Part shown: positions 29,185 to 61,772 of the stretch, piece by piece
How positions within the stretch are numbered: the first letter of the stretch is position 1
Layout: each line of letters opens with the position of its first letter
DNA from: a virus
Virus record (IMG/VR): IMGVR_UViG_3300045988_081670
Direction: 5' to 3' (one strand)
Length of the DNA stretch: 64,000 nucleotides
Notes under the pieces: model-generated
What the model saw: the letters and a program-made list of their open reading frames with translations, nothing else
Databases searched by the model: none
Told to the model about the DNA's origin: nothing
Position numbers and translations under genes: made by a program

Positions 29185-29250
29185 TTTTTTTTTCTTTATT
29201 AATATCCGTACTACATTTTTCTCTGATAAATAGAAAACAAACTATTTGGG

Positions 29251-30204: not shown

Positions 30205-30206
30205 AT

Positions 30207-31481
30207 TTAATTATTGTTAGATAAATTTATCATATAACTGCTATGTGCATAAGGGTATAGTGCCATAGCTGGATCTGAAGCCATAAGTCCATGAAACGCA
30301 GCCTGTCCTGCACTTACAAATCTACTACCAATTCCTTCCGCTCCTCCTAATCTCTTAGGGGCTAATGCCTTTCTTGCAGAGTTAAGTGCACTTCCAGCCT
30401 AGTAAAGGTTAGCAGCTCCTGGTGTATGAGACATCATAGGTCTCCAATTGTTTTTTAATGTAGTTTTTACACCATCTCGCATCATTCCAGAGGCTCCTGA
30501 TCTAAGTCTAGAGACTCCTCCCTTCATTCCTTTAGTTCCGAGGAGAGCCATAGCAAAATTAGCTTCATCATTGAAATTCTTTCTTTGTTGCTCATCTAGT
30601 CCAGTCCAGGCAAAATTCTTATCAGCAAATCCCTTATTTCTGGGATCATCTGGTAGTATTCCTTTCTCTCCTGGAGCTAAGAAACTTCTGATGGAGTTAA
30701 TATCCTTACCTAGATCTAAATATTGTCCTAGCTTGCCAGCTTCTCTCTCAACCTTCTAAGGAAGTAAAAGTTGTAGTGCAGTTCCAATAGTTCCTCCTAG
30801 AATAGCATTTCCAGTTCTGGAAACGTCTCCGAGAGTATCATTGAATCGCGCCCAACCACCTGTATTTCGTTTCGGTTCTAACACACTCTGGGGAACATTA
30901 TCATACATTCCACTTCTTCTAGCATATCCTTTTTTCCAAATATCAGAAATTGACTTAAAGGAATCAACAAAGTTTTCCACAGCACTATCCCAGTTACCGT
31001 CCCAAGCACCTTTCTTGAAAGGATTTAGATCACTCCAACTAAATTCATCAGGATCCTCAGCAGAAGTCTATGATTTCTGTCGTGCTCTATAAGCCTGCAT
31101 AGCTTTATTCTTTGTATCTTGATTTAGATAGGTATCTTTATTATTGAAAGGATTTCTCTGTGTATAGCCAGTTGCTGTCTTTCTAGCTCCTGCTGCCTTT
31201 GCATTTTCCTCTATTCTAGAAGCTGCTTCATCCCAAGTAGCAGTTCTTCCTTCTCTAGAAGATTTAACATCATTGAAACGCCAGCGTCCATTCTAGAATA
31301 TGTTTCCATTTCTAGTATTCATGGAGACTCTATTTGCATAATCTTTACCATATTTACTGGCTAAATATCTCCAGGCAGACCCAGTTATAGCCTACCCTTT
31401 CTAGGCAATCTTGTTGCCATTTACATCTCGGTAATATCCATCTTTACCGAGCCACAATTTACTCATATTAAAATCAGCCAT
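30207..31481 (-). CDS. hypothetical Gly-rich protein, TAG-recoded (6 in-frame TAG). Contains the annotated 74-aa ORF 30756..30980
   Basis: 424 codons open from the ATG at 31481 to TAA 30207: MADFNMSKLWLGKDGYYRDVNGNKIA*KG*AITGSAWRY... reading through TAG 30756..30758 into ...QKVEREAGKLGQYLDLGKDINSIR.... Confidence 0.7.
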
Positions 31482-31519
31482 TTTCTTCTTTTTTTTTTTA
31501 TGTTTACAGGAACAGGTAG

Positions 31520-31595
31520 TACCTCCTAGTGGATTCGAACCAACAGTTTCACTAATATAGACTTTGTTAAACTTCTACCACTGATATAAGGAGGT
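31520..31595 (-). tRNA. candidate amber-suppressor tRNA (anticodon CTA), non-canonical features
   Basis: 76 nt: ACCTCCT TA TATCAGTGGTAGAAGTTT AACAAA GTCTATA TTAGT GAAACT GTTGG TTCGAAT CCACT AGGAGGT A. Perfect 7-bp acceptor, D-loop AGTGGTAGA, canonical T-arm. The best anticodon helix puts CTA at positions 34-36 with U33. An alternative fold gives GTC with A33. It lies 38 nt upstream of the recoded gene block. Confidence 0.45.
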
Positions 31596-31775
31596 AATCT
31601 AGTTAGTTATACTCCAACTAGAAATGAGTTTAGGTTATTTTCACTGGTTTTATTATAACATTCCATTATCCCAGCACCTATCGTATGTTCTTTCTCTTTC
31701 TAACCTAAATGATTAATTTTAAGGTAATTTACGATATTTAAACGAGTCAGTGAGAGATGTTTGTTACCTAAAGTT

Positions 31776-44008: not shown

Positions 44009-44511
44009 AAAACAGAATACATTTTAGAAATTAACCATAATAATTTTCGATAAAATTGCTGTTAGTATTCTTATTCAAACAATATAGCAAAAATGGATTC
44101 AAAACAAAAACGGAATGCTACTAGAAATATTCAATATTAAAAACCTTATATTATTGTCTAAAGTTTGCTGTGTGCATTCCTATAACAATCTTCTAAATAT
44201 AGAATTTTAAAGTAGGGATGAGGGAGTCGAACCCCTTGTCTTGTATATTTGCATCAAAGCGTTCTTACAGCTTAGGTTTTAAAGACTATCCTTGTCGTCA
44301 TAAGATTCTATCAAGTCATTTGTTTTACACCTTTCTGTTCTTAAGCAAGTGTTGCTCTACTTCTTAGGCTGCAATAACCAAAGAAGCATAATTCATATTT
44401 ATAAATATGTCGTTTATTACTTTGTTGCCTTGCTGTGCTTCTTATCTCTTATACAATCAAAACCAAACATCCCTATAGTAAGTAGTTTCTGGTCATGCTT
44501 AGGACTTTCCA

Positions 44512-45036: not shown

Positions 45037-45084
45037 AGAAAACCTTTTTAATTAATAAATGCTAATCTAAAACAGGAATCTCTT

Positions 45085-45151
45085 CTTTGTAACTGCTGCT
45101 CTAAACCAGCTGAGCTACCTTATAAAGGATTGGATTCGAACCAATGACCTG
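45085..45151 (-). other. rearranged tRNA-like fragments: a T-arm plus acceptor-3' piece (45110..45151) directly 5' of a tRNA 5'-half piece (45085..45109)
   Basis: The minus RNA reads TTAAAGG CCGCAGGTC ATTGG TTCGAAT CCAAT CCTTTAT AA GGTAGCTCAGCTGGTTTAGAGC AGCAGTT.... The halves are in permuted order and no intact cloverleaf can be drawn. Confidence 0.3.
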
Positions 45152-45264
45152 CGGCCTTTAAAAGAATATATTTGCTGTTAGATTCCTTGTTAAATATGTC
45201 AAAAACGTAAACGGTATCTAAGTTAAAGGGTTTAAGCCTCTGATTTACTCTTATGATAGCTAGT

Positions 45265-47312: not shown

Positions 47313-49055
47313 TCACGAACCAGTATAAATTATATACTTTTTACGTTTATGCTTAGTTACACTAAGCTTTATGATTCTTACTCTGTTAAGTAGCTCCTGA
47401 TCCATTGCTGTCAAGAACAACTCTTCTGCATTCTTAGGAGCCTTAAGTTCAGGTTTATTACCTCCTAAGATAAATGCCACAGCACTTGGGTCATAGCCAG
47501 ACATATAGAAGAAATTAGGAGCATCTGCAAAGTCTTCAAACTTTACCTTGTTATCATAACCGTACCATCCATTAGGAATATCCCAAAGGATAATCTTAAA
47601 GGAATTAACGTATTCCTCACTAAATCCAGCCTCACGAAGTCTCCTAATTGCAAGTTGGAAATTTGTAGATTTGTTAGTACCACGTCTATCAAATTCTCCA
47701 TCACTTACGCAAAGGATTCCACTTGGGAAATCCTTTTCCTCAACTCCTTCTGATTTTAATCTTATAAAGAGATCAATTACAGATTGGAAATTAGTATTTG
47801 CGTAAGCACCGCAATTATCATTGATGTACTTATCAATAGGAGTTTCTCCCTTCCATTTATGTAACGTACATCCGTCAGAAAACTCTGCAAATGTATCCGC
47901 AAAGTATCCTTCTAAGAACTCAGAGAAATACAATGCCATAGATTTAGCAATGCAGAATGAAGATACATTACAGCCTCTAGCTGTTGAAGTCATTGAGCCT
48001 GAAGTATCTCGTACTACAAGTAGTGAGGACTTAGCGTTTACATTCTCTTTACCTGTTTTTACAAGTTGTGCAAATTGTGCATTAATTGTCTTCTCCTTGT
48101 AATCCGCCATGTGTCGACAGTTTTCATCGAAAGGAGCAAATAGCTCAAACACATATCCTGTGAACTTGGCTACAGGCTTAGAGGAAATCCAATCAGTGTA
48201 CTTCTTAGTAAGATTGTGGTTCTCCAAGAAGTTAGAACCCACCAAGAGAGCTAAAGCTCTACCCGCAATGTGGTCAAAGTTAAGTGAATCGTATAACTGC
48301 TGAGAAATAAGTTGCTGCCATTCATGAGCAACACCTTCAGACTTAATCTTTCGATAGACCTTATAAGCCGATTCTTTCTCTAATTTAGGAGACAATTTTC
48401 TAGCCAGCCATCTACCTATAAGAGTGTCTGCTTGAGATTCAAGCGTTGTACACTTCTTATTTGTTCTAATAGTTGGCAGATACTTACGAACTAGGTGAGT
48501 TGTATCAGGATTGTTAAGTCCTGCTGACAAAGTCAGATATAGGAAATTCCAATCTAACTTTCTCCCTTCCCACCCATGATATTGTAGGTCTAAAGAGAGC
48601 ATTTGAATAACATCCTTCCATGAGCCTGCTGCAATGAAAAGAGGAAGATTTACTTTAAAGGTTGCAGGTTGGTTAATAGCCAGCCACAACATTCTCATAA
48701 TACCTTCATTCTTCAAGCCCTGTCCACGCTGAACGTCTAGTTCTTCACTTTTGTCTTTAGTAACAATTTTAGACTTACGTGTAATGAGTCTGAAATAGAG
48801 CGCAAGTTTTACACATAGAATGGGATTTGAACCCCATAGAGTTTGCATGTCCTTTGCTACTTCCTCATAAGAACGTGGCTCTTTGAAATATGAAGCAGCA
48901 GCAAAGTTATCAACAAAATCGTTTCCAGTTGTGGAATACTTCTTTGCTCCATTGCCTGACTCAGTTTCAGAAGACACTTTGAGTGCTTGCTTTACAAACT
49001 GATTCTCGACAGGTTTAATGTCAAGAAGTGAATTTACCTTCTTTTGAAATTCCAT
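47313..49055 (-). CDS. vWA-domain protein (MIDAS DTSGSM) with long N-terminal helical region, possibly TROVE/Ro60-like
   Basis: 580 aa. MIDAS motif LLVVRDTSGSMT at about residue 340. N-terminal roughly 330 aa predicted helical. Adjacent to the AAA+ ATPase and flanked by tRNA genes. Confidence 0.5.
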   Translation of the reverse strand: MEFQKKVNSLLDIKPVENQFVKQALKVSSETESGNGAKKYSTTGNDFVDNFAAASYFKEPRSYEEVAKDMQTLWGSNPILCVKLALYFRLITRKSKIVTKDKSEELDVQRGQGLKNEGIMRMLWLAINQPATFKVNLPLFIAAGSWKDVIQMLSLDLQYHGWEGRKLDWNFLYLTLSAGLNNPDTTHLVRKYLPTIRTNKKCTTLESQADTLIGRWLARKLSPKLEKESAYKVYRKIKSEGVAHEWQQLISQQLYDSLNFDHIAGRALALLVGSNFLENHNLTKKYTDWISSKPVAKFTGYVFELFAPFDENCRHMADYKEKTINAQFAQLVKTGKENVNAKSSLLVVRDTSGSMTSTARGCNVSSFCIAKSMALYFSEFLEGYFADTFAEFSDGCTLHKWKGETPIDKYINDNCGAYANTNFQSVIDLFIRLKSEGVEEKDFPSGILCVSDGEFDRRGTNKSTNFQLAIRRLREAGFSEEYVNSFKIILWDIPNGWYGYDNKVKFEDFADAPNFFYMSGYDPSAVAFILGGNKPELKAPKNAEELFLTAMDQELLNRVRIIKLSVTKHKRKKYIIYTGS

Positions 49056-49431: not shown

Positions 49432-49514
49432 GTCGGAGTAGTGGGACTCGAACCCACACGCATTACTGCATATGCTCCTAAGGCATACGTGTCTACCATT
49501 CCACCATACTCCGA
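49432..49514 (-). tRNA. tRNA-Leu (anticodon TAG)
   Basis: TCGGAGT...TATGC CTTAGGA GCATA plus a long variable arm, GGG TTCGAGT CCC, ACTCCGA. Confidence 0.7.
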
Positions 49515-50214
49515 AACCTTTACACAGAATAAGCTTCTTCTAATTCCTTAGACCAAGCTTGATAAACACTAGCAACTGGTTCGTGCATCATATTATGCTT
49601 TTTAGCATAATCGAGCAAATACCTCAATTCTTGTAAATCCATAATGTTATATTTTAATAGTATTGATAGCGTCTTTTATTACATTTGATGCTTTCAGTAA
49701 AGCCTTATTGCTACTCTGTAGCTTTCCCTTAAGGTTATTTAGTTCTACCTTTATATCCTTGCATTGTTTCTTTAGACTTTTGTTCTCCTCATATATAGAG
49801 TCAGCTACTTCCAAGTCTGATCGCAGCTTAGCACTATTCAGATCTTTATGGACTTTTTGAAGCTCCTTGTTAGTCTTTTTGAGAGACTTTAGTAAGCCTT
49901 TTATCTGACTTGCGAATAAATCCCTTACACTAAAGTAACTTTTTAAAAATCCTAGAATATCTTCCTTATAAAAGCAAGAAGTTATTGCAAGATCCCTGTC
50001 AGTAAAATAATAGCAACCATTGGAAAGCTTGACTATTTCAAAATCAACAAACTCATGTTCACTATAATGATCAGAAAACCTAATCGTAGTAGATCCTTTT
50101 TGATAATATCTAGAATTATTATTATGGGCTTTCTGATAAGAATCAGTCATTGAAATCAACAACTTGTGAATTGATTTATCTCTATAATCCATTTCTTTTT
50201 CTTTTTATGTTAAT

Positions 50215-50300
50215 ATTTGTAGCTCTAGCGAGAGTCGAACTCGCACGCCCATTACTGGACAACAGATTTTCCTGCCACACTTGCTTTTACACAAGCAAAC
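50215..50300 (-). other. tRNA-like element (canonical T-arm GCGAG TTCGACT CTCGC, no acceptor partner; upstream hairpin with 8-nt loop)
   Basis: 3' end reads ...GGGCGTGCGAGTTCGACTCTCGCTAGAGCTACA. No complementary 5' acceptor strand found within 100 nt. Confidence 0.25.
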
Positions 50301-51204
50301 TAACATTGACTTCCACTTCCAAAGCACCCCGACTTATTTTCGTGCACCAATTATAAATTGTGAAGCCACCCTCACAGGTATTAAGAAGTTTTCATTTATA
50401 TATTCACTCGACGGGTAAAGTATTAGAATATATAAGTTAGTCTTTGTGGTCTGGACTATTTTATTACCATATTAAAAATCTTGCAAGATATAGCTTCATT
50501 TTCTCCTTCTCATATTGCAAGCTAACAGAGTTTAAGATTCTCTTGCTACGCAACTTAGATTCCACTATAATTTCTAACTTAGGTATCTCCTCTATAGTCT
50601 CTACACATTTATGAACTATAAAACTTTGTATTTAAACTTATTAGTATTTTTTGCCTAGTCTCGGAAAACACTAATCATTTTACAGTATTTCAATTTAGCT
50701 CGTCATCACCAAAATTTATGTCACCATAAATAAGGTTTCTGTCGAATTAGGGAGATTCTACTCTTATAATTTCTTATAAGGCACTCAAATTTTCAAGTCT
50801 GTCGGGTCTACCATTCCCCCATAGAGCCGTCCTTTTTAAAGGAGCTTGTAGGCAGTTTCTATAAACTTATCAATTAAATCATCTCTATAGAAACAATCTA
50901 CACCATAATCAAATTGTACTTTTCTAGCTACACGATATTTAGAATCAATGTAGTTAAATACCTTTTGACCTTCTCTCCAATTGTTTTGAAAAGCCTTAAT
51001 ACCATTAAGGACATCTTCTCTAAATTCTTCGTATGTCATAATTATTATTTTTAAAATGGTCCTGTACGATTTGAGCATTGTTAAGAGGCTTGACAGGAAA
51101 GAAAAAACCTGGCTTCAGGCGGTTTTATCCCTACTTCACTATATCCCAGTAATACCTTAAGAGTACTGATATAGTCCCGGTGTCAAGCTTCAGATTTTAT
51201 TAGT

Positions 51205-51250
51205 TAGTGTATAGAGAATCGAACTCTATTTGTGACCATCACACCACAAC
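51205..51250 (-). other. tRNA-like minihelix (TGGTGTG...TAGAG TTCGATT CTCTA TACACTA)
   Basis: A 7-bp acceptor pair (with G-U) directly flanks a T-arm. No D-arm or anticodon arm. Confidence 0.25.
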
Positions 51251-51504
51251 AGCAGGAGTATTCTCCAATTGAGAATATCCTAGAATTGATCTATTAATCT
51301 TCGTACTTAATGTACGGAATTGTGCAACTTGGAGCCCAAGCATAAGTTTTGGCTGCCAAATTTAAGTACCATTTAATTGCTTTCTTAAGCATCTTCATAA
51401 CCGTAATTAATTTTAGTAAATAATTTAATTTTAAAAAGTTAAACGTATTAGTAAGATTAGCGCAACCCAATTCACACCACGTGGAGGTTCTTACTATGTG
51501 AATC

Positions 51505-51577
51505 TTACGGGAGGAGGATTCGAACCTCCGACCTCCAGCTTATGAGGCTGGCAAGCTACCATCTGCTCTATCCCGCG
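51505..51577 (-). tRNA. tRNA-Met (anticodon CAT), initiator-like with a C1:A72 mismatch
   Basis: CGCGGGA TA GAGCAGATGGTAGCT T G CCAGC CTCATAA GCTGG AGGTC GGAGG TTCGAAT CCTCC TCCCGTA A. Confidence 0.6.
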
Positions 51578-51704
51578 ATGTTAAAAAGGTATCAGGCGAT
51601 TAGATAGACTCACGCAACGACTATGTTCCTTACAAACAGTTCGCTATCTTTATGATTGGAGGGCATTGTCTAAATTAACCTTGTTTGCAGTTTCTATACC
51701 TTTG

Positions 51705-51778
51705 TGAGTTTAATAAGACTCGAACTTATATCTTGCGGCTTAACTAGCCGCTGCTTTATCCTATTAAGCTATAAACTC
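51705..51778 (-). tRNA. tRNA, anticodon loop TAGTTAA (GTT, Asn-like, with A33)
   Basis: GAGTTTA TA GCTTAATAGGATAAAGC A GCGGC TAGTTAA GCCGC AAGAT ATAAG TTCGAGT CTTAT TAAACTC A. Perfect acceptor stem but A33. Confidence 0.45.
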
Positions 51779-51886
51779 TGTGTTCTCATGCATAAGAACA
51801 CACGACTACTTTCACCTATGCGTCCGTCGGTTCATTGTCTTTACGGTAGGTCTGCGCAGCCCGCTGCCATAGGTTATCCTTGTCAA

Positions 51887-51960
51887 GTAGCGGAAGTAGG
51901 GTTTGAACCTACGACCTCCACATTATCAGTGTGGTGCTCTAACCAACTGAGCTATTCCGC
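51887..51960 (-). tRNA. tRNA-Ile (anticodon GAT)
   Basis: AGCGGAA TA GCTCAGTTGGTTAGAGC A CCACA CTGATAA TGTGG AGGTC GTAGG TTCAAAC CCTAC TTCCGCT. Confidence 0.75.
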
Positions 51961-52079
51961 TGTTTAATCTCTTCTTTATCGTGTAGAGACTTAGGAACAC
52001 GTGTAGCCAGAAAGCTATCCACACACGATTCTCACGAACAGTAGTACTACTATTTGATATACGTTTATTTATCACCCGG

Positions 52080-52165
52080 TGTTCCCTATGGGATTCGAAC
52101 CCATGACCCCGAATTTAAAAGATTCGTGCTCTCTAGCCTTACGGAACCAACTGAGCTAAGGGAAC
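52080..52165 (-). tRNA. tRNA-Lys (anticodon TTT) with a roughly 10-nt insertion in the D-loop
   Basis: GTTCCCT TA GCTCAGTTGGTT[CCGTAAGGCT]AGAGAGC A CGAAT CTTTTAA ATTCG GGGTC ATGGG TTCGAAT CCCAT AGGGAAC. Confidence 0.55.
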
Positions 52166-52520
52166 AAATGACGTAGGAGTTTCTAGTTTTATTCTCAAAC
52201 CACTAGAAGGTCTCCTACGTGTTACTCTTTACGAGCCTGGCATCAATTTGGGATGATGTTCAGTCCTCAGCATTTTCTTGTTGAAAATCAACAAAAGTCA
52301 CTAGTTTATGGATTACTAGAAACCTGAGAATGTGAAGGTACAAAACTCTAAGAGAGGAAACTTCGCTTCAATGTTTTTACAGTAATCTTTCCATTTTAAA
52401 GTGCACCAGTTTCTATAGGAAAGACATAACTCTTCTAGCCTAGGACTCATAGAAGGGCTAAGGAAATTATCCAGTACCGACTGGAACTACATTCTTACTG
52501 ACACTTATAAAGATTATGTG

Positions 52521-52619
52521 ATTTATATTATGGTACTCCCAGTGAGACTCGAACTCACACGAACATTACTGTTCATCAGATTTTAAGTCTGACTTGTCTA
52601 CCAATTCCAACATGAGAGC
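52521..52619 (-). tRNA. tRNA-Leu (anticodon TAA), CCA encoded
   Basis: GCTCTCA TG TTGGAATTGGTAGAC AAG TCAGA CTTAAAA TCTGA plus long variable arm TGAG TTCGAGT CTCA C TGGGAGT A CCA. Confidence 0.7.
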
Positions 52620-52782
52620 TTGAATACAAGATACTTACGTTCTATAGACTGTAGAAACTCCTGATATGCTGCATAGCATCACATAACAATGGAGCTATCT
52701 TGTATCATGCTTGAAATTACATACCCTATACGGAAAAGAGCGACTCGCTCCACCAATTAAGGATTTTTTTTTTCGTTATTGT

Positions 52783-52858
52783 TGTGAGTGTAGGAGTCGA
52801 ACCTACTATCGTACAGATTATGAGCCTGACATGATTTACAAATATCCGTTTCACTCCC
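52783..52858 (-). tRNA. tRNA with CAT anticodon (Met or Ile2), weak D-arm
   Basis: GGGAGTG...TCAGG CTCATAA TCTGT...TAGG TTCGACT CCTA CACTCAC A. One acceptor mismatch. Confidence 0.4.
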
Positions 52859-53039
52859 TCACGATATATTGTTTAAAGAATTTTCGGCGGAGGCAGATCC
52901 TTAAGTACCATCACCGGGGATACATTTTATCAGTTTCTTCTAGTCTTCTACGTGCTATATTATGAGGTAGCGCTACTTCTCCTTTCAACGTTCCATGAAC
53001 TAAAGTACTCCTTAGGTACAGCCTCCATGTTTTAATATT

Positions 53040-53116
53040 TGGTGGGCCCAGAGAGGTATGATCTCCCGACCTTGTCATTATGAGTGACCTGCTCTGACCA
53101 ACTGAGCTATGGGCCC
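53040..53116 (-). tRNA. tRNA with CAT anticodon (likely Ile2, lysidine type, or Met), CCA encoded, unusual T-loop ATCATAC
   Basis: GGGCCCA TA GCTCAGTTGGTCAGAGC A GGTCA CTCATAA TGACA AGGTC GGGAG ATCATAC CTCTC TGGGCCC A CCA. Confidence 0.6.
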
Positions 53117-53683
53117 ATAAGCACATCTCTCGATGTGCATGCCTTAGTATATTCCACCTAAGTGTTTAGAGACCTTGCAAGTTGGAATTAATCCATACAC
53201 ACAGTGTCAACCGAAGCAGTATCTGCATTAATAGTATCTACCTGAGCAGTATCAGTACTGTCATTATCAGCGTTAGCTGAGTTAGTAGAATTTCCACATG
53301 AAGCAAACATTGCTCCAAACATCAATACAGATGCAAAAATTAACTTTTTCATTTTCATAAAATTTAATTAAACATTTAAGTTATCTATGCTATTCTAAAT
53401 ATATATTTAATGTTGGCGGTGGCAAAAGGATTCGAACCTTAAATCTCTTGCGCCATGCAAGTATTTTACGAGTAAACGATAATCTTTTTATTCTCAATGT
53501 ACTAATAATACAAAAATAATACAATATTATATGCTTGCTTTTATATTATATTTACATTACTTCCCATAGATATTTATTGCGATTACCATTATAATAACTC
53601 CACCTATTTTAAACTATACCACCAAAGGATGCTATACTATTCTCACGAACCATGTAGCGCAAAAGTTTTAATTAAACTATAAG

Positions 53684-53754
53684 TTGGACTACCAGGATTC
53701 GAACCTGGAAAAACAGCGCCAAAAACTGTTGTGTTACCGTTACACCATAGTCCA
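53684..53754 (-). tRNA. tRNA-Gln (anticodon TTG)
   Basis: TGGACTA TG GTGTAACGGTAACAC AACAGT TTTTGGC GCTGTT TTT CCAGG TTCGAAT CCTGG TAGTCCA. Confidence 0.6.
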
Positions 53755-53902
53755 ATAAAGTAGAACTACCTTCACAGGCAATTCTACTAAAACAAAGTTA
53801 TTAACCATAAAAAGTATATGTATTTTGTTAACCACTCTTGATTAAACTAATATATTATCGGTAGTGGGACAACGTGGAATCGAACCACAATCTCGGGATT
53901 GT

Positions 53903-53974
53903 GGGGAAGGACAGATTTGAACTGCCGACCATCTGATCTTCAGTCAGACACTCTACCACTGAGTTACTTCCCCG
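53903..53974 (-). tRNA. tRNA-Phe (anticodon GAA). A 42-nt T-arm-containing fragment plus an 8-bp hairpin follows at 53866..53902
   Basis: GGGGAAG TA ACTCAGTGGTAGAGT G TCTGA CTGAAGA TCAGA TGGTC GGCAG TTCAAAT CTGTC CTTCCCC A. The downstream fragment reads CAATCCCGAGATTGTGGTTCGATTCCACGTTGTCCCA. Confidence 0.7.
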
Positions 53975-54383
53975 CATTCTTACCACTAAAATTATCTGTT
54001 TGCGAATGACAGTTTGGACACAAGAAAGTTAAATTCTCTAGTCTATTATCCCTGTTATTCCCATTAATATGATGTAACTGTAAGGTTAATAGTTTTCCAT
54101 TCCATTCAGTTATTCCACAGTTAGAACACTTATACTCTATTAAGTTCGCTTTAATTAAGCGTTTTTTGAACTTAGTCATGTTGGAATATGTGGAATTTTC
54201 AACCATTATATCTTCCAAAGAATATTTAGTATTATCAGATGTACCATGTGCTCTACCTAAGAAATGTGAGAAATCTATATTGTTCTCAATTAAGTAATCT
54301 TTTAATCCTTTGAAAGAATTTCCTCTATTTGCAGTATAACCTAATTTCCTCATTAGTTCCGAAAATGTTATACTTTCATTCAC
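53964..54383 (-). CDS. HNH homing endonuclease (embedded in the tRNA array)
   Basis: CSNCGITEWNGKLLTLQLHHINGNNRDNRLENLTFLCPNCH is an HNH motif with flanking Zn-binding Cys pairs. Confidence 0.8.
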   Translation of the reverse strand: MNESITFSELMRKLGYTANRGNSFKGLKDYLIENNIDFSHFLGRAHGTSDNTKYSLEDIMVENSTYSNMTKFKKRLIKANLIEYKCSNCGITEWNGKLLTLQLHHINGNNRDNRLENLTFLCPNCHSQTDNFSGKNAGK

Positions 54384-54636
54384 TAATTTGGTAAGTTCTT
54401 CTATAGAAACCTATTTGTATTTACATATCATATTAGTAATTTTAGTTAAATTTCCGCGCTCTGACCTTCTAAGCTATTGTCCCAATTCGCTAGAAAATCT
54501 ATTCACATAGACTTCCTAGCTTGCATATTGTGCCTACAAAACAAAGTATCCACGATAAATGAATAGACCAGAGTAGACTCTACGTATGAGTGTAGAGTTT
54601 ACAGGAATAACATTTATGTGTGTAAATTTGAGGAGT

Positions 54637-54710
54637 GGAGCTGATGGGGAACGATCCCACAACCTCCTGCTTGCAAAGCAGGTGCTCTAGCCAATTGAGC
54701 TACAGCCCCA
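54637..54710 (-). tRNA. tRNA-Ala (anticodon TGC), unusual T-loop ATCGTTC
   Basis: GGGGCTG TA GCTCAATTGGCTAGAGC A CCTGC TTTGCAA GCAGG AGGTT GTGGG ATCGTTC CCCAT CAGCTCC A. Confidence 0.65.
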
Positions 54711-55005
54711 GTGCTAGAATTTATCCTAATATTTTATTCTAATGGGTCTAAATTTCCGACACATGATTCATAACTTTCTTTACCATCAGAATCTCTTGTA
54801 ACAAAGTAATAGTCTTCATTAGTCTCGGACATTCCAATAAGAGTTACCTCTTTTCCTCTGAAATCCTTATATTTATCACCAATATGAGCTGTAAAATCCT
54901 TAAACCATTCTGGTAAATCTTCTCTATCTTTTACTTCATTAAAAGAGGAATAGATCTTTTCCCATTTTATATACCCATCCTTGTTATATTCTTTATATTC
55001 CATAG

Positions 55006-55079
55006 CGCACCCTGCAGGACTCGAACCTGCGACTTTCTGATTAACAGTCAGACGTTCTAACCAACTGAACTAAGAGTGC
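55006..55079 (-). tRNA. tRNA-Asn (anticodon GTT)
   Basis: GCACTCT TA GTTCAGTTGGTTAGAAC G TCTGA CTGTTAA TCAGA AAGTC GCAGG TTCGAGT CCTGC AGGGTGC G. Confidence 0.75.
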
Positions 55080-55273
55080 AAATCCACTATCGAGTTCCTC
55101 AAGCTCTTGTAATTGAATACAGATAGTGGTGGAAGGTTTCTAGATTACCTTCTAACTGACTATCTTCTGGCGTAGTCACATCCTTCTGTTATTATAGTGT
55201 ACAGATAGCACTGAGGAACGCAAGACCTGGGTAAGCATCAGGTCTCGAAACTAACTTCTGATAAGAAGTAGTG

Positions 55274-55345
55274 TATCGCCAACCAGATTCGAACTGGTGT
55301 TGCGACATTGAAAATGTCGAGTCCTAACCACTAGACGATAGCGAT
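55274..55345 (-). tRNA. tRNA-Glu (anticodon TTC)
   Basis: ATCGCTA TC GTCTAGTGGTTAGGAC T CGACA TTTTCAA TGTCG CAAC ACCAG TTCGAAT CTGGT TGGCGAT A. Confidence 0.7.
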
Positions 55346-55653
55346 AAAAGCAGAGTACAAACGAAAGGTATTTTTAGCAAAATAAGTTTAAATCGTAAAG
55401 TTTGCTGTAAGTACTCTTATTTTATTAAAAATAATATTTAAATGAAATGTCAGATAACAGAACACTTTTGTATTTCTAAAAATTATATAATAAAAATTGC
55501 TGTTAGTGTTCTTATCTATAAGATAAAATTATAAACCATCAGATAGCGTTTTGGTTGTTTATTTACTTCGGACAACCTCCGAATACTCAATTATAATAAA
55601 AATTATGTAAAATAAGTAATTTTGCTGTGCGCTATCTTGTTGGTGAAAAGTAG

Positions 55654-55726
55654 AGTCGTGAATGGGACTCGAACCCACCCATTTAGCTTGGAAGGCTAAC
55701 ATGCTAACCACTAACACCACCACGAC
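55654..55726 (-). tRNA. tRNA-Gly (anticodon TCC)
   Basis: GTCGTGG...TTAGC CTTCCAA GCTAA ATGGGT GGG TTCGAGT CCC ATTCACGAC. Confidence 0.6.
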
Positions 55727-57360
55727 ATAGGTTTTTATTAACTTCTTGTTCTCTCTTGTAAAATTGTATAGCAAAGATAGTATCTATGAAGAAAATTGCA
55801 AAATCAAATTCTGTTAAAATTTGTAAATTGATCTAAGTCAAGTTTTCATCATAAATACTATCTTAGTCTATAAAAGATTATATGTCAAAGACATATCTTT
55901 TGGACACTGACTACAACATCCATGCCATTCTCTCTTAAGAGTTTGATTGCTGCTTGTATATCAGGTCTTTTAAGTATGTCTTTGTGTCTTTTCTTATCAC
56001 GCCATTTATTGTGATATGCATTCACTTTCTTCTGGTATTCCTTATAAATCTCATTAAGCTTATGAAAATGAATAGGCTTATTAGGATTATTAAAGCAATA
56101 CAAGTCATCTCCAACTTGTTTTACAAGCCCAGAGTTGGAAAATGCAGTCCAGAATACTGGATTTGATGGTATTCCACAACTCTTAAACCCTTCTCGGATT
56201 GTATCACTTGTAAAAGGAGTTTTAGCCAGCTGATGGCGCAACGTATTTAATCCTACGATATGCGCCTCAGCGTCAAACTTCTTAGCCATTGATCTCCGCA
56301 TTATAGAGGTTTCGCATTTCTTCTACTAAGTCTGAGCACCAATCTATAGTGCGACCGTGATACTTAGAGAATAAATCCACGCCAAAGAAAGTTCTAGGCT
56401 GGATGTCGTGAATCTGGTTGTTCTTGTCAATTGTAATCTCCAATTCAAATGGGAGATTTACAACAGCCTTCTGCTGATTCTGACCAACCTGTGCATCTTT
56501 GTTTGTAGTGATAATAGCTTTAAAATTCTTTAACATAGAATTTTACCTCCCTAGCGAGGATTTATTAAGTCTAGGAAAAGTTACAGTCTTTGACTGTCAG
56601 TCAGTATAATTTTTCAAGCGGAGCTACTATTATTCACTCAAAACTATACAAAACTAGAAATACTTGTGAGAGTCATAGGTAGCTCTCAAGTTCACCTTTT
56701 TATTTAATTGAGAGGTGTAACTCAATTCTTTAGGAGCCTACTTTTTACACATCTTCTCAAAGACTTCTCTGAGAAGTTTGTTAGCATCCTCTTTGGTAAG
56801 ATGATTCCTCGTTTCTTTCATCTCCCTTTCAATTTCAGAAGATTTTGAGAGCATCTGTCCCATTTGTATGCTAATAGTAGCGTACCCTGCTAAAACTGAT
56901 GCAATAACCATTCTCTGCACTTCCTCAGGGAGCTCTTTAACACTCTCTTTAAAGCTACGGGTATCGCAGACAAGACCCTTTGCCACGGCTGAAGTTGCCT
57001 TATCTACAACCTCAGAACTGTACATTTTGTTTTCTTTTTCCATTTTTTTTTTCTTTAGTTAACTATACCAAATTTCTGGAATGTTTATCATTTTATTATA
57101 TGATTACAATTACTTCTATTTCAACTGCTGAGATTTGAATGTAAGATGTTCTAATTGCTGCAAGAAGTTTGAGCGAAGCTTTAAATCCCTGATGGTCTTC
57201 TATTTTTACTGCAGACTTTGCAACCTCGGTTACAAATTCTATTGCCTCTTCCTTAGAAAGAGTGCCGACTATTGATTCTCCGTTTGAGAAGAACTCAATA
57301 CCATTTGAACATTCAAAAATCTTTTTCATTTCTTTTCGTTTTTATTATTAATAACTGGAG

Positions 57361-57431
57361 ACTATCTGGGAGTCGAACCCAGGTGACTTAGCCAAGGCAT
57401 AGTATCCTAACCGTTAGATGAATAGTCTCTT
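57361..57431 (-). other. tRNA-like element with perfect acceptor stem (AGACTAT/ATAGTCT), D-loop-like segment and canonical T-arm (CTGGG TTCGACT CCCAG) but no foldable anticodon arm
   Basis: The middle segment ACTATGCCTTGGCTAAGTCACC cannot form a 5-bp stem with a 7-nt loop in any register. Confidence 0.35.
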
Positions 57432-60400: not shown

Positions 60401-61772
60401 TTGCTTAAAAATTTCTTTTAATAATCTTTCTGCATTTAAAAGAATATTAAGAGAATCAGTTTTTGACAATTTCGAGCTATATTCTTTTGTTGGAATAATA
60501 GACGTTATTAATGCGCTATTTATATTATCCGTTGTAGGATTGTCTAAAGCTTTGTAAGAAGCTAATATAGATGATGCACATGTTTCTATATTCCTGCATA
60601 AGATTTGATATATTTCTTCGTTCATGATAAAAAGGCGATTAACCTAAGTATCGCGAGGTTTTTAGTGGTTTATTTTACGATTGATACTCTAACCCAATAT
60701 GCGTCTTTTGAAAGACCTTCTGCAAATGTTGCCCAATTCTCTTCTGGACATTTTGCAATACATTGCAATCCTTCAAAGTTGATTAAGAGTTCACAAATTC
60801 TTTTTAGCTTTTTCATGAGCTCTTCTTGGTTATTACTTTCGTACCATACGTAATCAGAAGTTTCTGATTCGTCATTGTTTCTGAAATGAGTTGTTTTTAC
60901 TATTTTCATTTTCTTACTTTGTTTTGTTTCACAGACACAGAGCCATTATATGATCCTCAATACATTTCGCTCGGATTATATAGTTTCTCTCTGTGTTTCG
61001 TCCAGTCTCATCGGTGTGAATTTTAACGTCTCCTGGATGACGTTGTAAGGCTACCCTCTTACAATTAAATTCTAAATCGTCATTATAGTTTCTATATGAG
61101 GTACCATATCCATTATAATGATAGTTCCCATTAACGTGGTCGTAGCTATCTCTTACTCCTTTGCCACAGGAAGCCTCTCTTTAAGCACCGAGGTTATCGC
61201 TTTCCAAAATGTAGAGTCCTTTATCACTTACTATCCCCTCTACTAATTTTCATTCGGTATTTGTGAATAACCGCTAGAACACATCCTGTTAATAACTCTT
61301 CTTTGTGAAGAGAGAAAAAATCATCTGTCCTAGTGATGTTTTTTACTTTTTTGTGAAAGTTTAAATTGTCATAAATTTTTTAGTTTAACCTATACTACTA
61401 AAAAGGTTTTTGTAACTAAATTTTTGTTGACTTGTATATAATCCCAATAATGGGAAAATTTTTTCTATCTTTAGTTTTATGGAAAATGGTAGTGTGAGTG
61501 TGTGGGCAACTGCGCTCATAGCTCAAGCTCTTAAGAACTTCAATATTTTCAACCAATCTCCAATTCTCTTAATCATCCAGAAACCTTTCAATCCTCTATC
61601 ATAAAAAGTATCTGGATAAATTGATAGGAGATTACCATTATCTAACTTTAACAGTGAATCTCCTATCTTTTGACCTTTAACACATTTTATACTTAGATTT
61701 TCTCTCACTTTTCTTTTTGATAAGAAAGAAGTTAAGAGTTTTTACACTCTCAACTCCTTATCCTGCAAGAAA

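What the first reader, a model, noticed from the sequence alone, without database searches (positions are those of the whole stretch)
49432..55726. Large tRNA array (at least 15 tRNAs in about 6.3 kb) with an embedded HNH endonuclease, plus six scattered tRNAs
On the minus strand I could fold tRNAs for Leu(TAG), Met (initiator-like with C1:A72), an Asn-like tRNA with A33, Ile(GAT), Lys(TTT), Leu(TAA), two further CAT-anticodon tRNAs (one with encoded CCA, likely Ile2), Gln(TTG), Phe(GAA), Ala(TGC), Asn(GTT), Glu(TTC) and Gly(TCC). Outside the array are Trp(CCA) at 25.4 kb, the candidate suppressor at 31.5 kb, Arg(CCT) at 33.4 kb, a Cys-like tRNA at 43.9 kb and Thr(TGT) at 47.2 kb. Such a repertoire in an AT-rich phage suggests compensation for host codon-usage mismatch. 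The Gln(TTG) tRNA is the natural evolutionary source of an amber suppressor. The HNH gene at 53964..54383 sits between tRNA genes, as expected for a homing element.
Basis: seen in the sequence. Interest (0 to 1): 0.55.

Follow-up and report, generated by a model that had tools for sequence, protein, structure and literature searches.

The report
Phage tRNA array invaded by homing endonucleases
This is a real cluster of about 15 transfer-RNA genes in a large gut phage; one tRNA gene carries a self-splicing intron, and another has been split by a mobile nuclease gene that sits next to a complete second copy of the same tRNA.

Summary
The tRNA array is real. ARAGORN and Rfam agree on 13 canonical minus-strand tRNAs in 49432-55726 and 4 more elsewhere in the window. 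The HNH ORF (53964-54383) is a true HNH endonuclease.

- A second tRNA-Leu(UAA) (50220-50828) is interrupted between U34 and A35 by a 524-nt ORF-less group I intron. Relative L003 has the intron-less allele. L001 and L004 carry an HNH-encoding intron at the same site.
- The HNH gene is not "between" tRNA genes. A 553-nt cassette (leader, HNH, and a complete but divergent tRNA-Phe) replaces the anticodon nucleotides of the resident tRNA-Phe. The two resident halves (54454-54483 and 53865-53900) now flank the cassette.
- A minimal HDV-like ("theta") ribozyme starts right after the initiator-like tRNA-Met.
- An orphan abiF antitoxin RNA motif lies inside the array.

The same HNH cassette occupies an unrelated tRNA-Phe allele in another phage lineage, and both lineages have empty-site relatives. 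Among 77 testable HNH-homologue loci, 24 have the gene inside a split tRNA: 15 with a spare tRNA, 11 intron-type, two loci scoring in both lists.

A tRNA block in large gut phages is already known. The spare-tRNA homing cassette and the phage tRNA intron appear to be new variants. Codon-usage compensation could not be tested. A Gln origin for the amber suppressor is not supported.

The parts
55653..55726 (-). tRNA-Gly(TCC)
   Evidence: ARAGORN; Rfam 52.1 bits
55273..55345 (-). tRNA-Glu(TTC). In relative L003 this gene is broken after U35 by an HNH gene followed by a new, complete Glu tRNA.
55005..55079 (-). tRNA-Asn(GTT), canonical, with G73
   Evidence: 74.5 bits; 94.6% identical over 56 nt to Prevotella Lak phages
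54635..54709 (-). tRNA-Ala(TGC). In L001 a new Ala gene plus an HNH gene precede an orphan 3' half of the old Ala gene.
54454..54483 (-). 5' half (positions 1-29) of the resident tRNA-Phe, now a disrupted gene
   Evidence: Homologous to the 5' part of intact tRNA-Phe in L001-L004 and L130. Its 7-nt acceptor strand GGGACAA is fully complementary to TTGTCCC at 53866-53872.
54384..54453 (-). 70-nt leader of the HNH cassette
   Evidence: About 79% identical to the same segment of L054/L055
53964..54383 (-). HNH homing endonuclease gene (139 aa, full length for its family)
   Evidence: Pfam PF01844 23.4 bits against cut-off 21.4; PHROG_10822 E = 8e-46; PADLOC 'homing endonuclease' E = 3e-16. Homologues are 130-140 aa.
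53902..53973 (-). Inner, complete tRNA-Phe(GAA), divergent from the resident type. It overlaps the HNH stop codon by 10 nt.
   Evidence: Rfam 73.9 bits; alignment A1; found only in the L054/L055 contigs of IMG/VR and in no bacterial genome
53865..53900 (-). 3' half (positions 37-73) of the resident tRNA-Phe
53683..53754 (-). tRNA-Gln(TTG)
   Evidence: 64 bits
53393..53682 (-). Window-specific 290-nt insertion with tRNA-like ends and no ORF; unexplained
   Evidence: Absent from L002; no homologue in any fetched locus; weak Rfam tRNA hit of 23.3 bits
53040..53116 (-). tRNA(CAT) with encoded CCA, probably Ile2
   Evidence: Ile(TAT) occupies the same position in L001/L003
52783..52862 (-). Non-canonical tRNA-like gene with a CAU anticodon loop and an enlarged D region
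   Evidence: Not called by ARAGORN or Rfam; compensatory changes in three helices against L002/L004
52531..52619 (-). tRNA-Leu(TAA) with encoded CCA, a window-specific extra copy
52080..52165 (-). tRNA-Lys(TTT), 86 nt, with an 11-nt D-loop insert
   Evidence: orthologues score 66.8-66.9 bits in Rfam
51887..51961 (-). tRNA-Ile(GAT). Orthologues in L001-L004 have the same body with a CAT anticodon.
   Evidence: (77.3 bits)
51704..51778 (-). Asn-like tRNA (GTT) with A33 and A73. Together with its 108-nt spacer it is an insertion relative to L001-L004.
   Evidence: (63.8 bits)
51505..51577 (-). Initiator-like tRNA-Met(CAT) with C1xA72, A11:U24 and A73
   Evidence: (61.8 bits)
51449..51504 (-). Minimal HDV-like (theta-type) ribozyme; its G1 directly follows A73 of tRNA-Met
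   Evidence: Descriptor hit with P1, P2, P3, L3, P1.1 and J4/2 all present. Rfam HDV-F-prausnitzii 26.1 bits, below the gathering score of 44. P1 compensatory changes in L030.
51060..51097 (-). abiF RNA motif (RF03085), orphan
   Evidence: 50.1 bits against gathering score 37. Conserved in L001-L004 at 50.1-50.2 bits. No Abi_2 or PADLOC hit in the flanking ORFs.
50795..50828 (-). tRNA-Leu(UAA) exon 1 (positions 1-34, ending ...GACUU)
   Evidence: ARAGORN -i; contiguous with exon 2 in intron-less L003
50271..50794 (-). 524-nt ORF-less group I intron
   Evidence: P1 ACUU/GAGU with a U.G pair at the 5' splice site; R element GUAGAGACUAUAG and S element AAUAGUCC (P7); terminal G. The core is 93% identical to the intron splitting the primase gene of crAss-like phage cr116_1. 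A group I intron scoring 57.7 bits in Rfam sits at the same tRNA site in L004.
50220..50270 (-). tRNA-Leu(UAA) exon 2
49432..49513 (-). tRNA-Leu(TAG)
   Evidence: 59.6 bits

Best explanation
The region is the tRNA block of a large (about 170-190 kb) gut phage. It encodes a near-complete decoding set with one U34 tRNA per four-codon box, transcribed on the minus strand. The block is also a landing zone for one family of small HNH homing endonucleases that target tRNA genes at or near the anticodon loop. Three consequences are visible in this window.

1. tRNA-Leu(UAA) at 50220-50828 carries a group I intron between U34 and A35. Here the intron has no ORF; in sibling genomes it carries the HNH gene. 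Self-splicing should restore a canonical tRNA.

2. The resident tRNA-Phe has been cut open. Its anticodon nucleotides (about positions 30-36) are replaced by a 553-nt cassette made of a leader, the HNH gene and a complete, divergent tRNA-Phe(GAA). The resident gene is dead, and the inner tRNA presumably supplies Phe decoding. The inner tRNA differs from the resident type across the anticodon stem (TCTGA/TCAGA against CGGGA/TCCCG), where the enzyme presumably recognises its target, so it would escape cleavage. The two resident halves serve as the homology arms by which the cassette spreads into intact tRNA-Phe genes of co-infecting phages.

3. The initiator-like tRNA-Met is followed directly by a theta-type HDV-like ribozyme that would cut the precursor exactly after A73.

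Shown: gene structures, homologies, empty and occupied alleles, and the family-wide association with tRNAs. Inferred: endonuclease specificity, splicing, ribozyme cleavage, and the compensating role of the spare tRNA.
For: Array: 13 tRNAs called by two independent tools. The syntenic but variable order Gly-Glu-Asn-Ala-...-Phe-...-Gln-...-Leu(tag) is found in L001-L004.

Intron: ARAGORN -i calls Leu(taa) with a 524-nt intron at position 35. The in-silico spliced product is a canonical tRNA-Leu that matches the intron-less gene of L003. P1 with a U.G pair, R/S (P7) elements and a terminal G can be read in the sequence. The core is 93% identical to the sequence between the split primase CDSs of cr116_1. 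L004 8500-8710 is an Rfam group I intron at 57.7 bits ending at the same exon-2 junction, with an HNH homologue just upstream of it.

Phe cassette: window 54483-54454 and 53900-53865 align with positions 1-29 and 37-73 of the intact tRNA-Phe of L001-L004 and L130. L054 and L055, from another lineage, carry the same leader + HNH + inner Phe (85% nt identity) inside a different resident allele with acceptor GGAGATA/TATCTCC. Similarity to the window stops at the ends of the outer tRNA. L054 and L130 are 97% identical in their flanks and differ by a 564-nt cassette that replaces 5 nt of the anticodon loop.

Family behaviour: 49 of 60 distinct homologues have a same-strand tRNA within 1 kb. Split tRNA halves span the HNH gene in 24 of 77 loci, against 1-3 loci in shifted control windows. 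Fifteen of these carry an inner tRNA (Phe, Gln, Cys, Leu) and 11 are tRNA-Leu(UAA) intron-type; two loci score in both lists. In sibling genomes HNH copies sit at broken Glu (L003), Ala (L001) and Lys (L002) genes, and in the Leu intron of L001 and L004.

Ribozyme: all HDV-like elements are present, G1 is 1 nt after A73, and P1 covaries in L030. [quoted passage not shown]
Against: - No expression, splicing or cleavage data exist for any of this.
- The window's own intron scores only 11.8 bits on Rfam Intron_gpI, and the ribozyme scores 26.1 bits against a gathering score of 44.
- The HNH target site is inferred only from insertion points. In L002 the Lys breakpoints lie in the acceptor/D region, not the anticodon loop.
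- The mosaic make-up of the window's outer Phe halves could reflect pre-existing allelic variation (L001 shares the donor-like D loop and T arm) rather than co-conversion.
- The exact Phe cassette was found in only three genomes.
- Whether the host supplies enough tRNA-Phe, which would make the spare copy unnecessary, is unknown.
Confidence: 0.75

Rival explanations
1. The array is simply a set of supplementary tRNAs that compensates for a codon-usage mismatch between an AT-rich phage and its host. The HNH gene is an incidental free-standing element lying between intact tRNA genes.
For: The phage is AT-rich (33-38% GC). Eight of the encoded anticodons have U34 and so suit A-ending codons. tRNA blocks of 17-26 genes are typical of zeta crAss-like phages (PMC12386605).
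Against: The HNH cassette is inside a tRNA-Phe gene, not between genes. Within four-codon boxes the phage prefers T-ending codons, while its tRNAs are U34 types. With relatives included, the set is nearly complete and not selective. The host is unknown, so the mismatch cannot be measured.
Confidence: 0.3
2. The outer tRNA-Phe is still a functional gene. The 553-nt insert is a true intron, either self-splicing or removed through processing of the embedded tRNA followed by ligation. Both a Phe tRNA and the endonuclease would then be produced from one precursor.
For: The outer halves keep a perfect 7-bp acceptor stem, a D arm and a T arm in both the window and L054, with different but matching acceptor sequences. 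HNH genes of the same family do live in real group I introns of tRNA-Leu.
Against: The anticodon and neighbouring loop nucleotides are absent from both junctions, so joining the halves cannot give a GAA anticodon loop. Outside the ORF and the inner tRNA only 70 nt remain, too little for a group I core. There is no G before the 3' junction. The remnant anticodon stems have decayed differently in the two lineages (CGGAA against CGAGA).
Confidence: 0.05
3. The nested arrangement is a scar of endonuclease-driven segmental duplication or recombination between tRNA genes within one genome. This would resemble SegB-driven amplification of a tRNA-Tyr + segB unit in phage T6. It would not be the result of site-specific homing of a cassette.
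For: SegB amplifies a 718-bp unit of tRNA-Tyr plus segB through microhomology (PMC13096335). 'Half-nested' forms, keeping only one old half, occur in L003, L001 and L130.
Against: The inner and outer Phe genes share only part of their sequence and have different acceptor, anticodon and T stems, so this is not a recent duplication. The same cassette sits at the same site in two unrelated resident alleles, and both lineages have empty-site relatives.
Confidence: 0.12
4. The split tRNA genes are metagenome assembly chimeras created at repeated tRNA sequences.
For: All the related sequences are metagenome-assembled contigs.
Against: The same junctions recur in independent contigs (L054 and L055). 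Analogous architectures recur in several lineages and for several tRNA types. The junctions fall in unique sequence, not in repeats.
Confidence: 0.03

Closest known systems
SegB (GIY-YIG) in the tRNA gene cluster of phages T4 and T6
   Same: A homing endonuclease gene embedded in a phage tRNA cluster. It cleaves inside tRNA genes of relatives that lack it, causes preferential inheritance of the tRNA region, and is statistically associated with tRNAs. A tRNA + endonuclease unit behaves as a mobile or amplifiable module (PMC2330249; PMC13096335).
   Different: SegB belongs to a different nuclease family and recognises the TψC stem-loop motif, whereas here the insertions are in the anticodon loop. 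SegB sits between intact genes. Here the gene lies inside a split tRNA and is linked to a divergent complete copy of the same isotype.
Intron-less homing by free-standing phage endonucleases (SegF, SegG, MobE)
   Same: The endonuclease is linked to a cleavage-resistant allele of its target gene. Repair of the cut allele copies both the endonuclease gene and the resistant allele (named in PMC2330249; PMC2790892 listed; mechanism partly from my own knowledge).
   Different: In those cases donor and recipient alleles are similar enough that conversion leaves no scar. Here the resistant tRNA is so divergent that one or both halves of the old gene remain as flanks.
[quoted passage not shown]
   Same: The insertion site between U34 and A35 of tRNA-Leu(UAA) is identical, with a U.G pair in P1 (site known from my own knowledge; the review and its references are PMC3984707). 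An intron-encoded endonuclease aimed at a tRNA anticodon region has a precedent (Bonocora & Shub 2001, cited in that review).
   Different: Here the host gene is a phage tRNA. The 2014 review states that all phage introns known at that time were in protein-coding genes despite many phage tRNA genes. The intron core is shared with an intron in a crAss-like phage primase gene, and sibling genomes carry an HNH ORF in their version.
Theta ribozymes (minimal HDV-like ribozymes next to gut-phage tRNAs)
   Same: A minimal HDV-like fold whose cleavage site abuts the tRNA 3' end. tRNA-Met is among the commonest partners (PMC10879173).
   Different: No essential difference; this is one more member. It sits below the Rfam HDV gathering score, and the suppressor tRNA of this window has no such ribozyme by my descriptor.
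tRNA blocks of zeta crAss-like phages
   Same: Genomes of 155-177 kb, 17-26 tRNAs in a block within the replication module, suppressor tRNAs, stop-codon recoding and several homing endonucleases (PMC12386605).
   Different: Membership of this phage in that clade was not tested. That paper does not describe tRNA introns or split tRNA genes (0 occurrences of HNH and 2 of intron).
Mobile endonuclease ORFs in fungal mitochondria that carry a replacement 3' part of the invaded gene (e.g. Allomyces atp6)
   Same: The mobile element destroys the resident copy but brings a substitute, leaving the old piece as a downstream pseudogene (from my own knowledge; not checked here).
   Different: That case involves a protein-coding gene and a partial replacement. 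Here a whole tRNA gene is carried.

Membership tests
tRNA (Rfam RF00005) | Covariance-model score at or above the gathering score (29 bits) | tested here: met
   13 genes in the array score 39.7-77.3 bits. The CAT tRNA-like at 52783-52862 and the suppressor at 31519 do not reach it.
Group I intron | Rfam RF00028 score at or above the gathering score (50 bits) | tested here: not met
   The window's intron scores 11.8 bits. The intron at the same tRNA site in L004 scores 57.7 bits.
Group I intron | P1 helix with a U.G pair at the 5' splice site, terminal G at the 3' splice site, and a P7 helix formed by the R and S elements | tested here: met
   Read directly from the sequence: exon ACUU pairs with intron GAGU; R GUAGAGACUAUAG and S AAUAGUCC; the intron ends ...GGCAGG. 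This rests on inspection, not on a scored model.
Group I intron | An intron-less allele exists, and precise removal restores the host gene | tested here: met
   L003 has a contiguous Leu(taa) gene. The spliced window sequence is called as a canonical tRNA-Leu.
Group I intron | Self-splicing with a guanosine cofactor | not testable with these tools
   Requires in vitro transcription or RNA-seq.
HNH endonuclease (Pfam PF01844) | Profile score above the gathering cut-off, with an HNH/zinc-ribbon motif | tested here: met
   23.4 bits against 21.4. The motif CSNCG...HHINGN...CPNCH is present. PHROG_10822 E = 8e-46.
Homing endonuclease gene (functional class) | Presence/absence polymorphism at the same site among close relatives | tested here: met
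   The window is occupied while L001-L004 are empty. L054/L055 are occupied while L130 is empty, with 97% identical flanks.
Homing endonuclease gene (functional class) | The enzyme cleaves the empty allele and spares its own locus | not testable with these tools
   Only inferred, from insertion sites and from the divergent anticodon stem of the inner tRNA.
Free-standing (intergenic) homing endonuclease such as SegB | The gene lies between intact genes | tested here: not met
   The gene lies within a tRNA-Phe gene whose halves flank the cassette.
HDV-like / theta ribozyme | Rfam HDV-family score at or above the gathering score | tested here: not met
   HDV-F-prausnitzii 26.1 bits against 44; drz-agam-1 17.9 bits against 37.
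HDV-like / theta ribozyme | Nested double-pseudoknot elements (P1 with a G.U pair, P1.1, P2, P3/L3, C in J4/2) and a cleavage site within 1 nt of a tRNA 3' end | tested here: met
   My own descriptor gave two hits in 128 kb of both strands. This is the only one next to a tRNA; the other lies inside an ORF. G1 is at 51504 and A73 at 51505.
HDV-like / theta ribozyme | Covariation that supports the helices | tested here: met
   P1 is GATTCAC/GTGAATT here and GACTTAC/GTAAGTT in L030, two compensatory pairs. Only a few sequences are available.
abiF RNA motif (RF03085), antitoxin of AbiF | Score at or above the gathering score (37 bits) | tested here: met
   50.1 bits, full-length match.
abiF RNA motif (RF03085), antitoxin of AbiF | An adjacent Abi_2/AbiF toxin gene | tested here: not met
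   Flanking ORFs, and ten further ORFs of 250-350 aa, have no Abi_2 or PADLOC hit. Not every ORF in the window was scanned.

The most novel reading that the evidence does not exclude
Small HNH endonucleases of this family, together with a linked cleavage-resistant tRNA, form a distinct kind of mobile element in phage tRNA arrays. The element homes into the anticodon loop of the cognate tRNA gene, kills it, and neutralises the damage by carrying a spare tRNA. The spare does the job that a self-splicing intron does for sister copies of the same endonuclease in tRNA-Leu(UAA). Such cassettes would drive allele replacement, anticodon turnover and horizontal spread of tRNAs between unrelated phages. 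Group I introns in phage tRNA genes would then be common in gut phages rather than absent.
Probability: 0.45. Interest if true: 0.7.

Novelty: new variant of a known kind. Interest (0 to 1): 0.58.

Why it matters
Phage tRNA arrays are now discussed as translation-autonomy and anti-defence devices. How they change so quickly is an open question.

This locus, with its relatives, shows that one endonuclease family repeatedly breaks tRNA genes at or near the anticodon. Each break is accompanied by either an intron or a spare tRNA. That gives a concrete, testable mechanism for allele replacement and for tRNA transfer between unrelated phages.

It also has a practical consequence. Standard tRNA finders miss intron-containing, split and D-arm-expanded phage tRNAs, so the decoding capacity of gut phages is systematically under-counted.

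The orphan abiF antitoxin motif inside the array could be an RNA decoy against AbiF-type defence. This is untested.

Tried and rejected
- Megablast of the array against GenBank phages gave only short hits. The only informative one was the intron core in cr116_1.
- A tblastn search with the neighbouring 580-aa protein found no close GenBank phage, so the clade was not assigned.
- Rfam at relaxed thresholds found no further ribozymes or known RNAs in the spacers.
- My HDV-like descriptor found no ribozyme after either suppressor candidate.
- Thermodynamic folding of five spacers gave unremarkable z-scores, apart from one hairpin at about 53760-53790. I therefore do not claim structured spacer RNAs, even though the spacers are 92-97% conserved in L001-L004.
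- The conserved motif at 52268-52328 was checked by hand against the hammerhead consensus and does not fit.
- A search for a 5' partner of the orphan T-arm fragment at 51203-51250 within 1.6 kb found none.
- Several ARAGORN -i 'intron tRNAs' (Val 51203-51778, Cys 51704-54709, Gly 52078-52765, Trp 55273-55726) are chimeras of neighbouring genes and were discarded.
- Exact-match scans of bacterial genomes with fragments of the inner Phe and the Asn tRNA found nothing, so the host could not be identified this way.
- The HNH protein has no sequence relative among solved structures.
- Literature searches found no report of group I introns in phage tRNA genes or of tRNA-carrying endonuclease cassettes. 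The library is incomplete, so this absence is weak evidence.

Full report
OBSERVATION

ARAGORN with default settings finds 17 tRNA genes in the window, all on the minus strand. Thirteen lie within 49432-55726:
- Leu(TAG) 49432
- Met(CAT) 51504
- Asn(GTT) 51704
- Ile(GAT) 51887
- Lys(TTT) 52078
- Leu(TAA) 52531
- Met(CAT) 53040
- Gln(TTG) 53683
- Phe(GAA) 53901
- Ala(TGC) 54635
- Asn(GTT) 55005
- Glu(TTC) 55273
- Gly(TCC) 55653

Rfam's tRNA model independently confirms all 17 at 39.7-77.3 bits against a gathering score of 29.

The fourteenth is a second "further CAT" tRNA at 52783-52862. Neither tool calls it. It is nevertheless conserved in two relatives, with compensatory changes in the acceptor stem (2:71 and 4:69), the anticodon stem and the T stem, and it has an aberrant 23-nt D region. 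I treat it as a probable non-canonical tRNA-like gene.

The HNH ORF at 53964-54383 is real. It scores 23.4 bits on Pfam HNH against a cut-off of 21.4 and E = 8e-46 on PHROG_10822 "HNH endonuclease". Homologues are 130-140 aa, so it is full length.

Outside the array, Trp, Arg(CCT), Cys and Thr(TGT) are confirmed. The CTA suppressor at 31519-31595 appears only at a relaxed ARAGORN threshold.

CONTEXT

The window has 33-38% GC. It encodes replication and nucleotide-metabolism proteins of a phage, including NrdD, helicases and exonucleases.

The 580-aa DUF2828/"RNA-binding" protein next to the array retrieved 53 loci from IMG/VR contigs, mostly 95-190 kb. The four closest full-length relatives, L001-L004, carry the same array in the order Gly-Glu-Asn-Ala-(Asp)-Arg-Phe-Tyr-Gln-...-Leu(tag). 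They show many gene gains, losses and replacements.

This matches published descriptions of zeta crAss-like phages, which have 155-177 kb genomes, 17-26 tRNAs in a block, suppressor tRNAs and several homing endonucleases (PMC12386605). I did not test clade membership. No close GenBank phage was found.

A GROUP I INTRON IN tRNA-Leu(UAA)

With introns allowed, ARAGORN calls a tRNA-Leu(taa) at 50219-50828 with a 524-nt intron after position 34.

- Relative L003 has the two exons contiguous as an ordinary Leu(taa) gene.
- The in-silico spliced window sequence folds as a canonical class II tRNA-Leu. Its acceptor, D and T arms are identical to L003, and the anticodon stem and variable arm covary.
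- The 5' exon ends ...ACUU and can pair with GAGU near the intron start, giving the U.G pair typical of a group I 5' splice site.
- The intron contains GUAGAGACUAUAG and AAUAGUCC, which correspond to the R and S elements that form P7. It ends in G.
- Its core (50576-50749) is 93% identical to sequence lying between two primase CDS fragments of the crAss-like phage cr116_1, that is, to an intron in a protein gene. The three homologous introns also share the 3' end GUGUGGYAGG|AAAAU.
- In L004 the same tRNA site holds an insert whose 3' part is an Rfam group I intron at 57.7 bits and whose 5' part encodes an HNH homologue. L001 is similar, and L002 has a 597-nt relative of the window's intron.

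The window's own intron scores only 11.8 bits in Rfam. Assigning it to group I therefore rests on the features above.

The U34|A35 site is the classical site of the cyanobacterial and plastid tRNA-Leu intron (my own knowledge). A 2014 review states that all phage introns then known were in protein-coding genes, despite many phage tRNA genes (PMC3984707). I found no later report to the contrary in the searchable library.

THE HNH GENE LIES INSIDE A SPLIT tRNA-Phe AND IS FOLLOWED BY A COMPLETE tRNA-Phe

Window 54483-54454 reads GGGACAATAGCTTAGAAGGTCAGAGCGCGG. Window 53900-53865 reads AATCCCGAGATTGTGGTTCGATTCCACGTTGTCCCA. These align with positions 1-29 and 37-73 of the single intact tRNA-Phe of L001-L004. 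The two pieces have a perfect 7-bp acceptor stem.

Between them lie 553 nt: a 70-nt leader, the HNH ORF, and a complete but quite different tRNA-Phe(GAA) at 53902-53973 that scores 73.9 bits. The first 10 nt of that tRNA contain the HNH stop codon.

The anticodon and neighbouring nucleotides of the outer gene are missing at both junctions. No G precedes the 3' junction. Only 70 nt are left over for any ribozyme. The outer gene therefore cannot be an intron-containing functional gene.

Two IMG/VR contigs from another lineage, L054 and L055, carry the same leader + HNH + inner Phe at 85% nucleotide identity (91% amino-acid identity for HNH). There it sits at the same place in a different resident allele with acceptor GGAGATA/TATCTCC. 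Similarity to the window begins and ends at the boundaries of the outer tRNA.

Their relative L130 is 97% identical in the flanks and has the uninterrupted gene. The cassette in L054 replaces 5 nt of the anticodon loop.

Both lineages therefore have occupied and empty alleles, and the mobile unit is delimited by the target-gene halves. This is the signature of homing.

The remnant anticodon stems have decayed differently, CGGAA here and CGAGA in L054, as expected for a dead gene.

The inner tRNA differs from all resident alleles in the anticodon stem (UCUGA/UCAGA against CGGGA/UCCCG and variants). This would plausibly make it resistant to the enzyme.

The inner tRNA's sequence occurs in IMG/VR only in those two contigs. 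It is found in none of 185,579 bacterial species genomes, so it is not a recent host capture.

THIS IS A PROPERTY OF THE WHOLE ENDONUCLEASE FAMILY

Of 60 distinct homologues retrieved from viral contigs:
- 49 have a same-strand tRNA within 1 kb.
- 34 have a tRNA ending within 200 nt upstream (16 Gln, 8 Leu).
- 14 have a tRNA starting at or overlapping the stop codon.

I wrote a detector that requires a 7/7 acceptor match, a D arm and a T arm, with both halves outside called tRNAs. It finds split tRNA halves spanning the HNH gene in 24 of 77 loci. Control windows shifted by 1.5-2 kb give 1-3 loci. ARAGORN -i independently finds most of them.

Taking together:
- Fifteen loci are "nested": a complete inner tRNA plus HNH lies inside an outer tRNA. 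The inner tRNAs are Phe, Gln, Cys and Leu(taa), and the inner tRNA may lie upstream or downstream of HNH. For most of these loci the outer halves resemble the inner isotype; for L056 and L090 I did not establish this.
- Eleven loci have no inner tRNA and a 5' exon ending ...GACUU. These are tRNA-Leu(UAA) with a 730-980-nt HNH-bearing insert, the intron type.
- Two loci score in both lists.

Within the window's own sibling genomes, HNH copies sit at several sites:
- L003: a tRNA-Glu broken after U35 and followed by a new Glu gene.
- L001: behind a new tRNA-Ala, with the old Ala 3' half downstream.
- L002: in place of the 5' part of tRNA-Lys.
- L001 and L004: in the Leu intron.

L130 shows a similar "half-nested" Gln form.

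MECHANISM

Shown: structures, homologies, empty and occupied sites, family association.

Inferred: the enzyme cuts sensitive tRNA alleles at or near the anticodon loop. Repair copies the endonuclease gene together with its linked resistant tRNA. Because donor and recipient tRNAs are too divergent for recombination to resolve within them, one or both halves of the old gene remain as flanks. These flanks then serve as short homology arms for further spread, including between unrelated phages.

The linked tRNA makes the insertion harmless. A self-splicing intron does the same job for sister copies of the same endonuclease.

The closest known systems are SegB in the T4/T6 tRNA cluster and intron-less homing by SegF, SegG and MobE. 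SegB cleaves tRNA genes at the TψC motif, drives preferential inheritance of the tRNA region, and amplifies a unit of tRNA-Tyr plus segB (PMC2330249, PMC13096335). The nuclease family, the target region and the nested architecture are all different here.

OTHER ELEMENTS INSIDE THE ARRAY

Theta-type ribozyme. Directly after A73 (51505) of the initiator-like tRNA-Met (C1xA72, A11:U24) lies a minimal HDV-like ribozyme at 51504-51449. Its elements are:
- P1 GAUUCAC/GUGAAUU, including the G.U pair
- P2 UAGUAAGA/UCUUACUA
- P3 ACC/GGU
- L3 UCCACGU
- P1.1 GG
- J4/2 CUAA

Rfam gives 26.1 bits, below threshold. L001 retains the ribozyme, and L030 has one after a Met tRNA with two compensatory P1 changes. 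[quoted passage not shown] My descriptor finds none after the suppressor candidates.

abiF motif. An abiF RNA motif (50.1 bits against 37) lies at 51060-51097 and is conserved in L001-L004. This motif is the RNA antitoxin that binds AbiF/Abi_2 toxins (PMC12373285). No Abi_2 gene was detected in the flanking ORFs or in ten further ORFs of suitable size. A decoy-antitoxin role is an attractive but untested idea.

Anticodon turnover. The window's Ile(GAT) has the same body as a CAT tRNA in L001-L004. The CAT+CCA tRNA at 53040 is positionally replaced by Ile(TAT) in L001 and L003.

Oddities. tRNA-Lys has a conserved 11-nt D-loop insert. The A33/A73 Asn-like tRNA is an insertion relative to the siblings.

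Homing element: supported, with the correction about its location.

Codon-usage compensation: not testable without the host. In 51 ORFs the phage prefers T-ending codons in four-codon boxes, whereas the array supplies one U34 tRNA per box. Relatives complete the set. This looks like a minimal autonomous decoding set. That is my inference.

Gln origin of the suppressor: not supported by sequence similarity.

The suppressor itself is credible. Reading TAG as sense fills the otherwise ORF-free 27.4-31.5 kb with four ORFs of 213-425 aa directly downstream of it.

VERDICT

The anatomy underneath is more interesting: a phage tRNA-Leu group I intron, endonuclease cassettes that carry a spare tRNA into the cognate tRNA gene, a tRNA-linked theta ribozyme and an orphan abiF motif.

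I rate this as a new variant of known kinds (intron-less homing and the tRNA-Leu intron), of moderate to good interest. All functional steps remain to be shown experimentally.

Noticed in passing
window 27400-31600 (-): A block with no standard-code ORFs becomes four ORFs (213, 378, 318 and 425 aa) when TAG is read as sense. It lies directly downstream of a divergent tRNA(CTA) at 31519-31595. The amino acid inserted at TAG was not determined.
   Followed up: partly
window 26599-26694 (-): A second, 96-nt CTA-anticodon tRNA-like call appears at a relaxed ARAGORN threshold. It has a good T arm (GCAGG TTCGAAT CCTGC). No Rfam support.
   Followed up: no
window 51060-51097 (-): An orphan abiF RNA motif (the antitoxin RNA of AbiF toxins) at 50.1 bits inside the tRNA array, conserved in L001-L004. 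No AbiF gene was detected nearby. It could be an anti-defence decoy.
   Followed up: partly
window 44210-44474 (-); L001 14836-15298, L002 13793-14123, L004 14795-15125: A weak tmRNA-like hit in the window (23.4 bits). The relatives have tmRNA hits above the gathering score (63-66 bits against 47), so this phage group seems to encode its own tmRNA.
   Followed up: partly
window 45069-45178 (-) and 47313-49055 (-): A Y-RNA-like (YrlA) sub-threshold hit (31.8 bits) with a tRNA-like T arm lies 2 kb from a 580-aa DUF2828/DUF7788 protein (PHROG 'RNA-binding protein'). This may be a Ro/Y-RNA-type module.
   Followed up: no
window 36954-37403 (-) and 41625-41771 (-): A group I intron at 50.8 bits (just above the gathering score) and a partial group I hit at 39 bits. 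There are further introns in this genome segment.
   Followed up: no
window 17116-18006 (-): An ORF with a GIY-YIG catalytic domain (25.6 bits), a second type of homing endonuclease in the window.
   Followed up: no
window 60957-61043 (-): A RAGATH-1 hammerhead-like match at 43.9 bits, below the gathering score of 56.3.
   Followed up: no
window 57358-57428 (-): A degenerate tRNA-Gln-like sequence: acceptor AGACTAT/ATAGTCT, good D and T arms, loop CCTTGGC, poor anticodon stem. It lies just outside the reported array and is missed by both tRNA finders.
   Followed up: partly
window 52080-52165 (-): tRNA-Lys(TTT) carries an 11-nt insert (TTCCGTAAGGC) in the D loop, conserved in L001 and L004. 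In L002 the 5' part of this gene is replaced by an HNH-containing insert.
   Followed up: partly
window 51704-51886 (-): An Asn-like tRNA with A33 and A73, plus its 108-nt spacer, is an insertion relative to L001-L004. Its decoding and charging identity are unclear.
   Followed up: partly
window 53393-53682 (-): A window-specific 290-nt insertion with no ORF, whose ends look like the halves of a tRNA (GGTGGTATAG... / ...AAGGTTCGAATCCTTTTGCCACCGCCA). It may be a remnant of another mobile-element event.
   Followed up: partly
window 51199-51434 (-): A conserved block that contains an orphan T arm plus acceptor strand (TAGAGTTCGATTCTCTATACACTA, 51203-51250). This fragment is conserved even in the more distant relatives L006, L008 and L010. 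No matching 5' half was found.
   Followed up: partly
window 52268-52328 (-): A 60-nt motif conserved out to L006-L010, with two hairpins showing covariation. It matches no Rfam family and does not fit the hammerhead consensus.
   Followed up: partly
window 51887-51961 and 53040-53116 (-): Anticodon turnover between sibling genomes. The same tRNA body carries GAT here and CAT in L001-L004. The CAT+CCA gene here is replaced by an unrelated Ile(TAT) gene in L001 and L003.
   Followed up: partly
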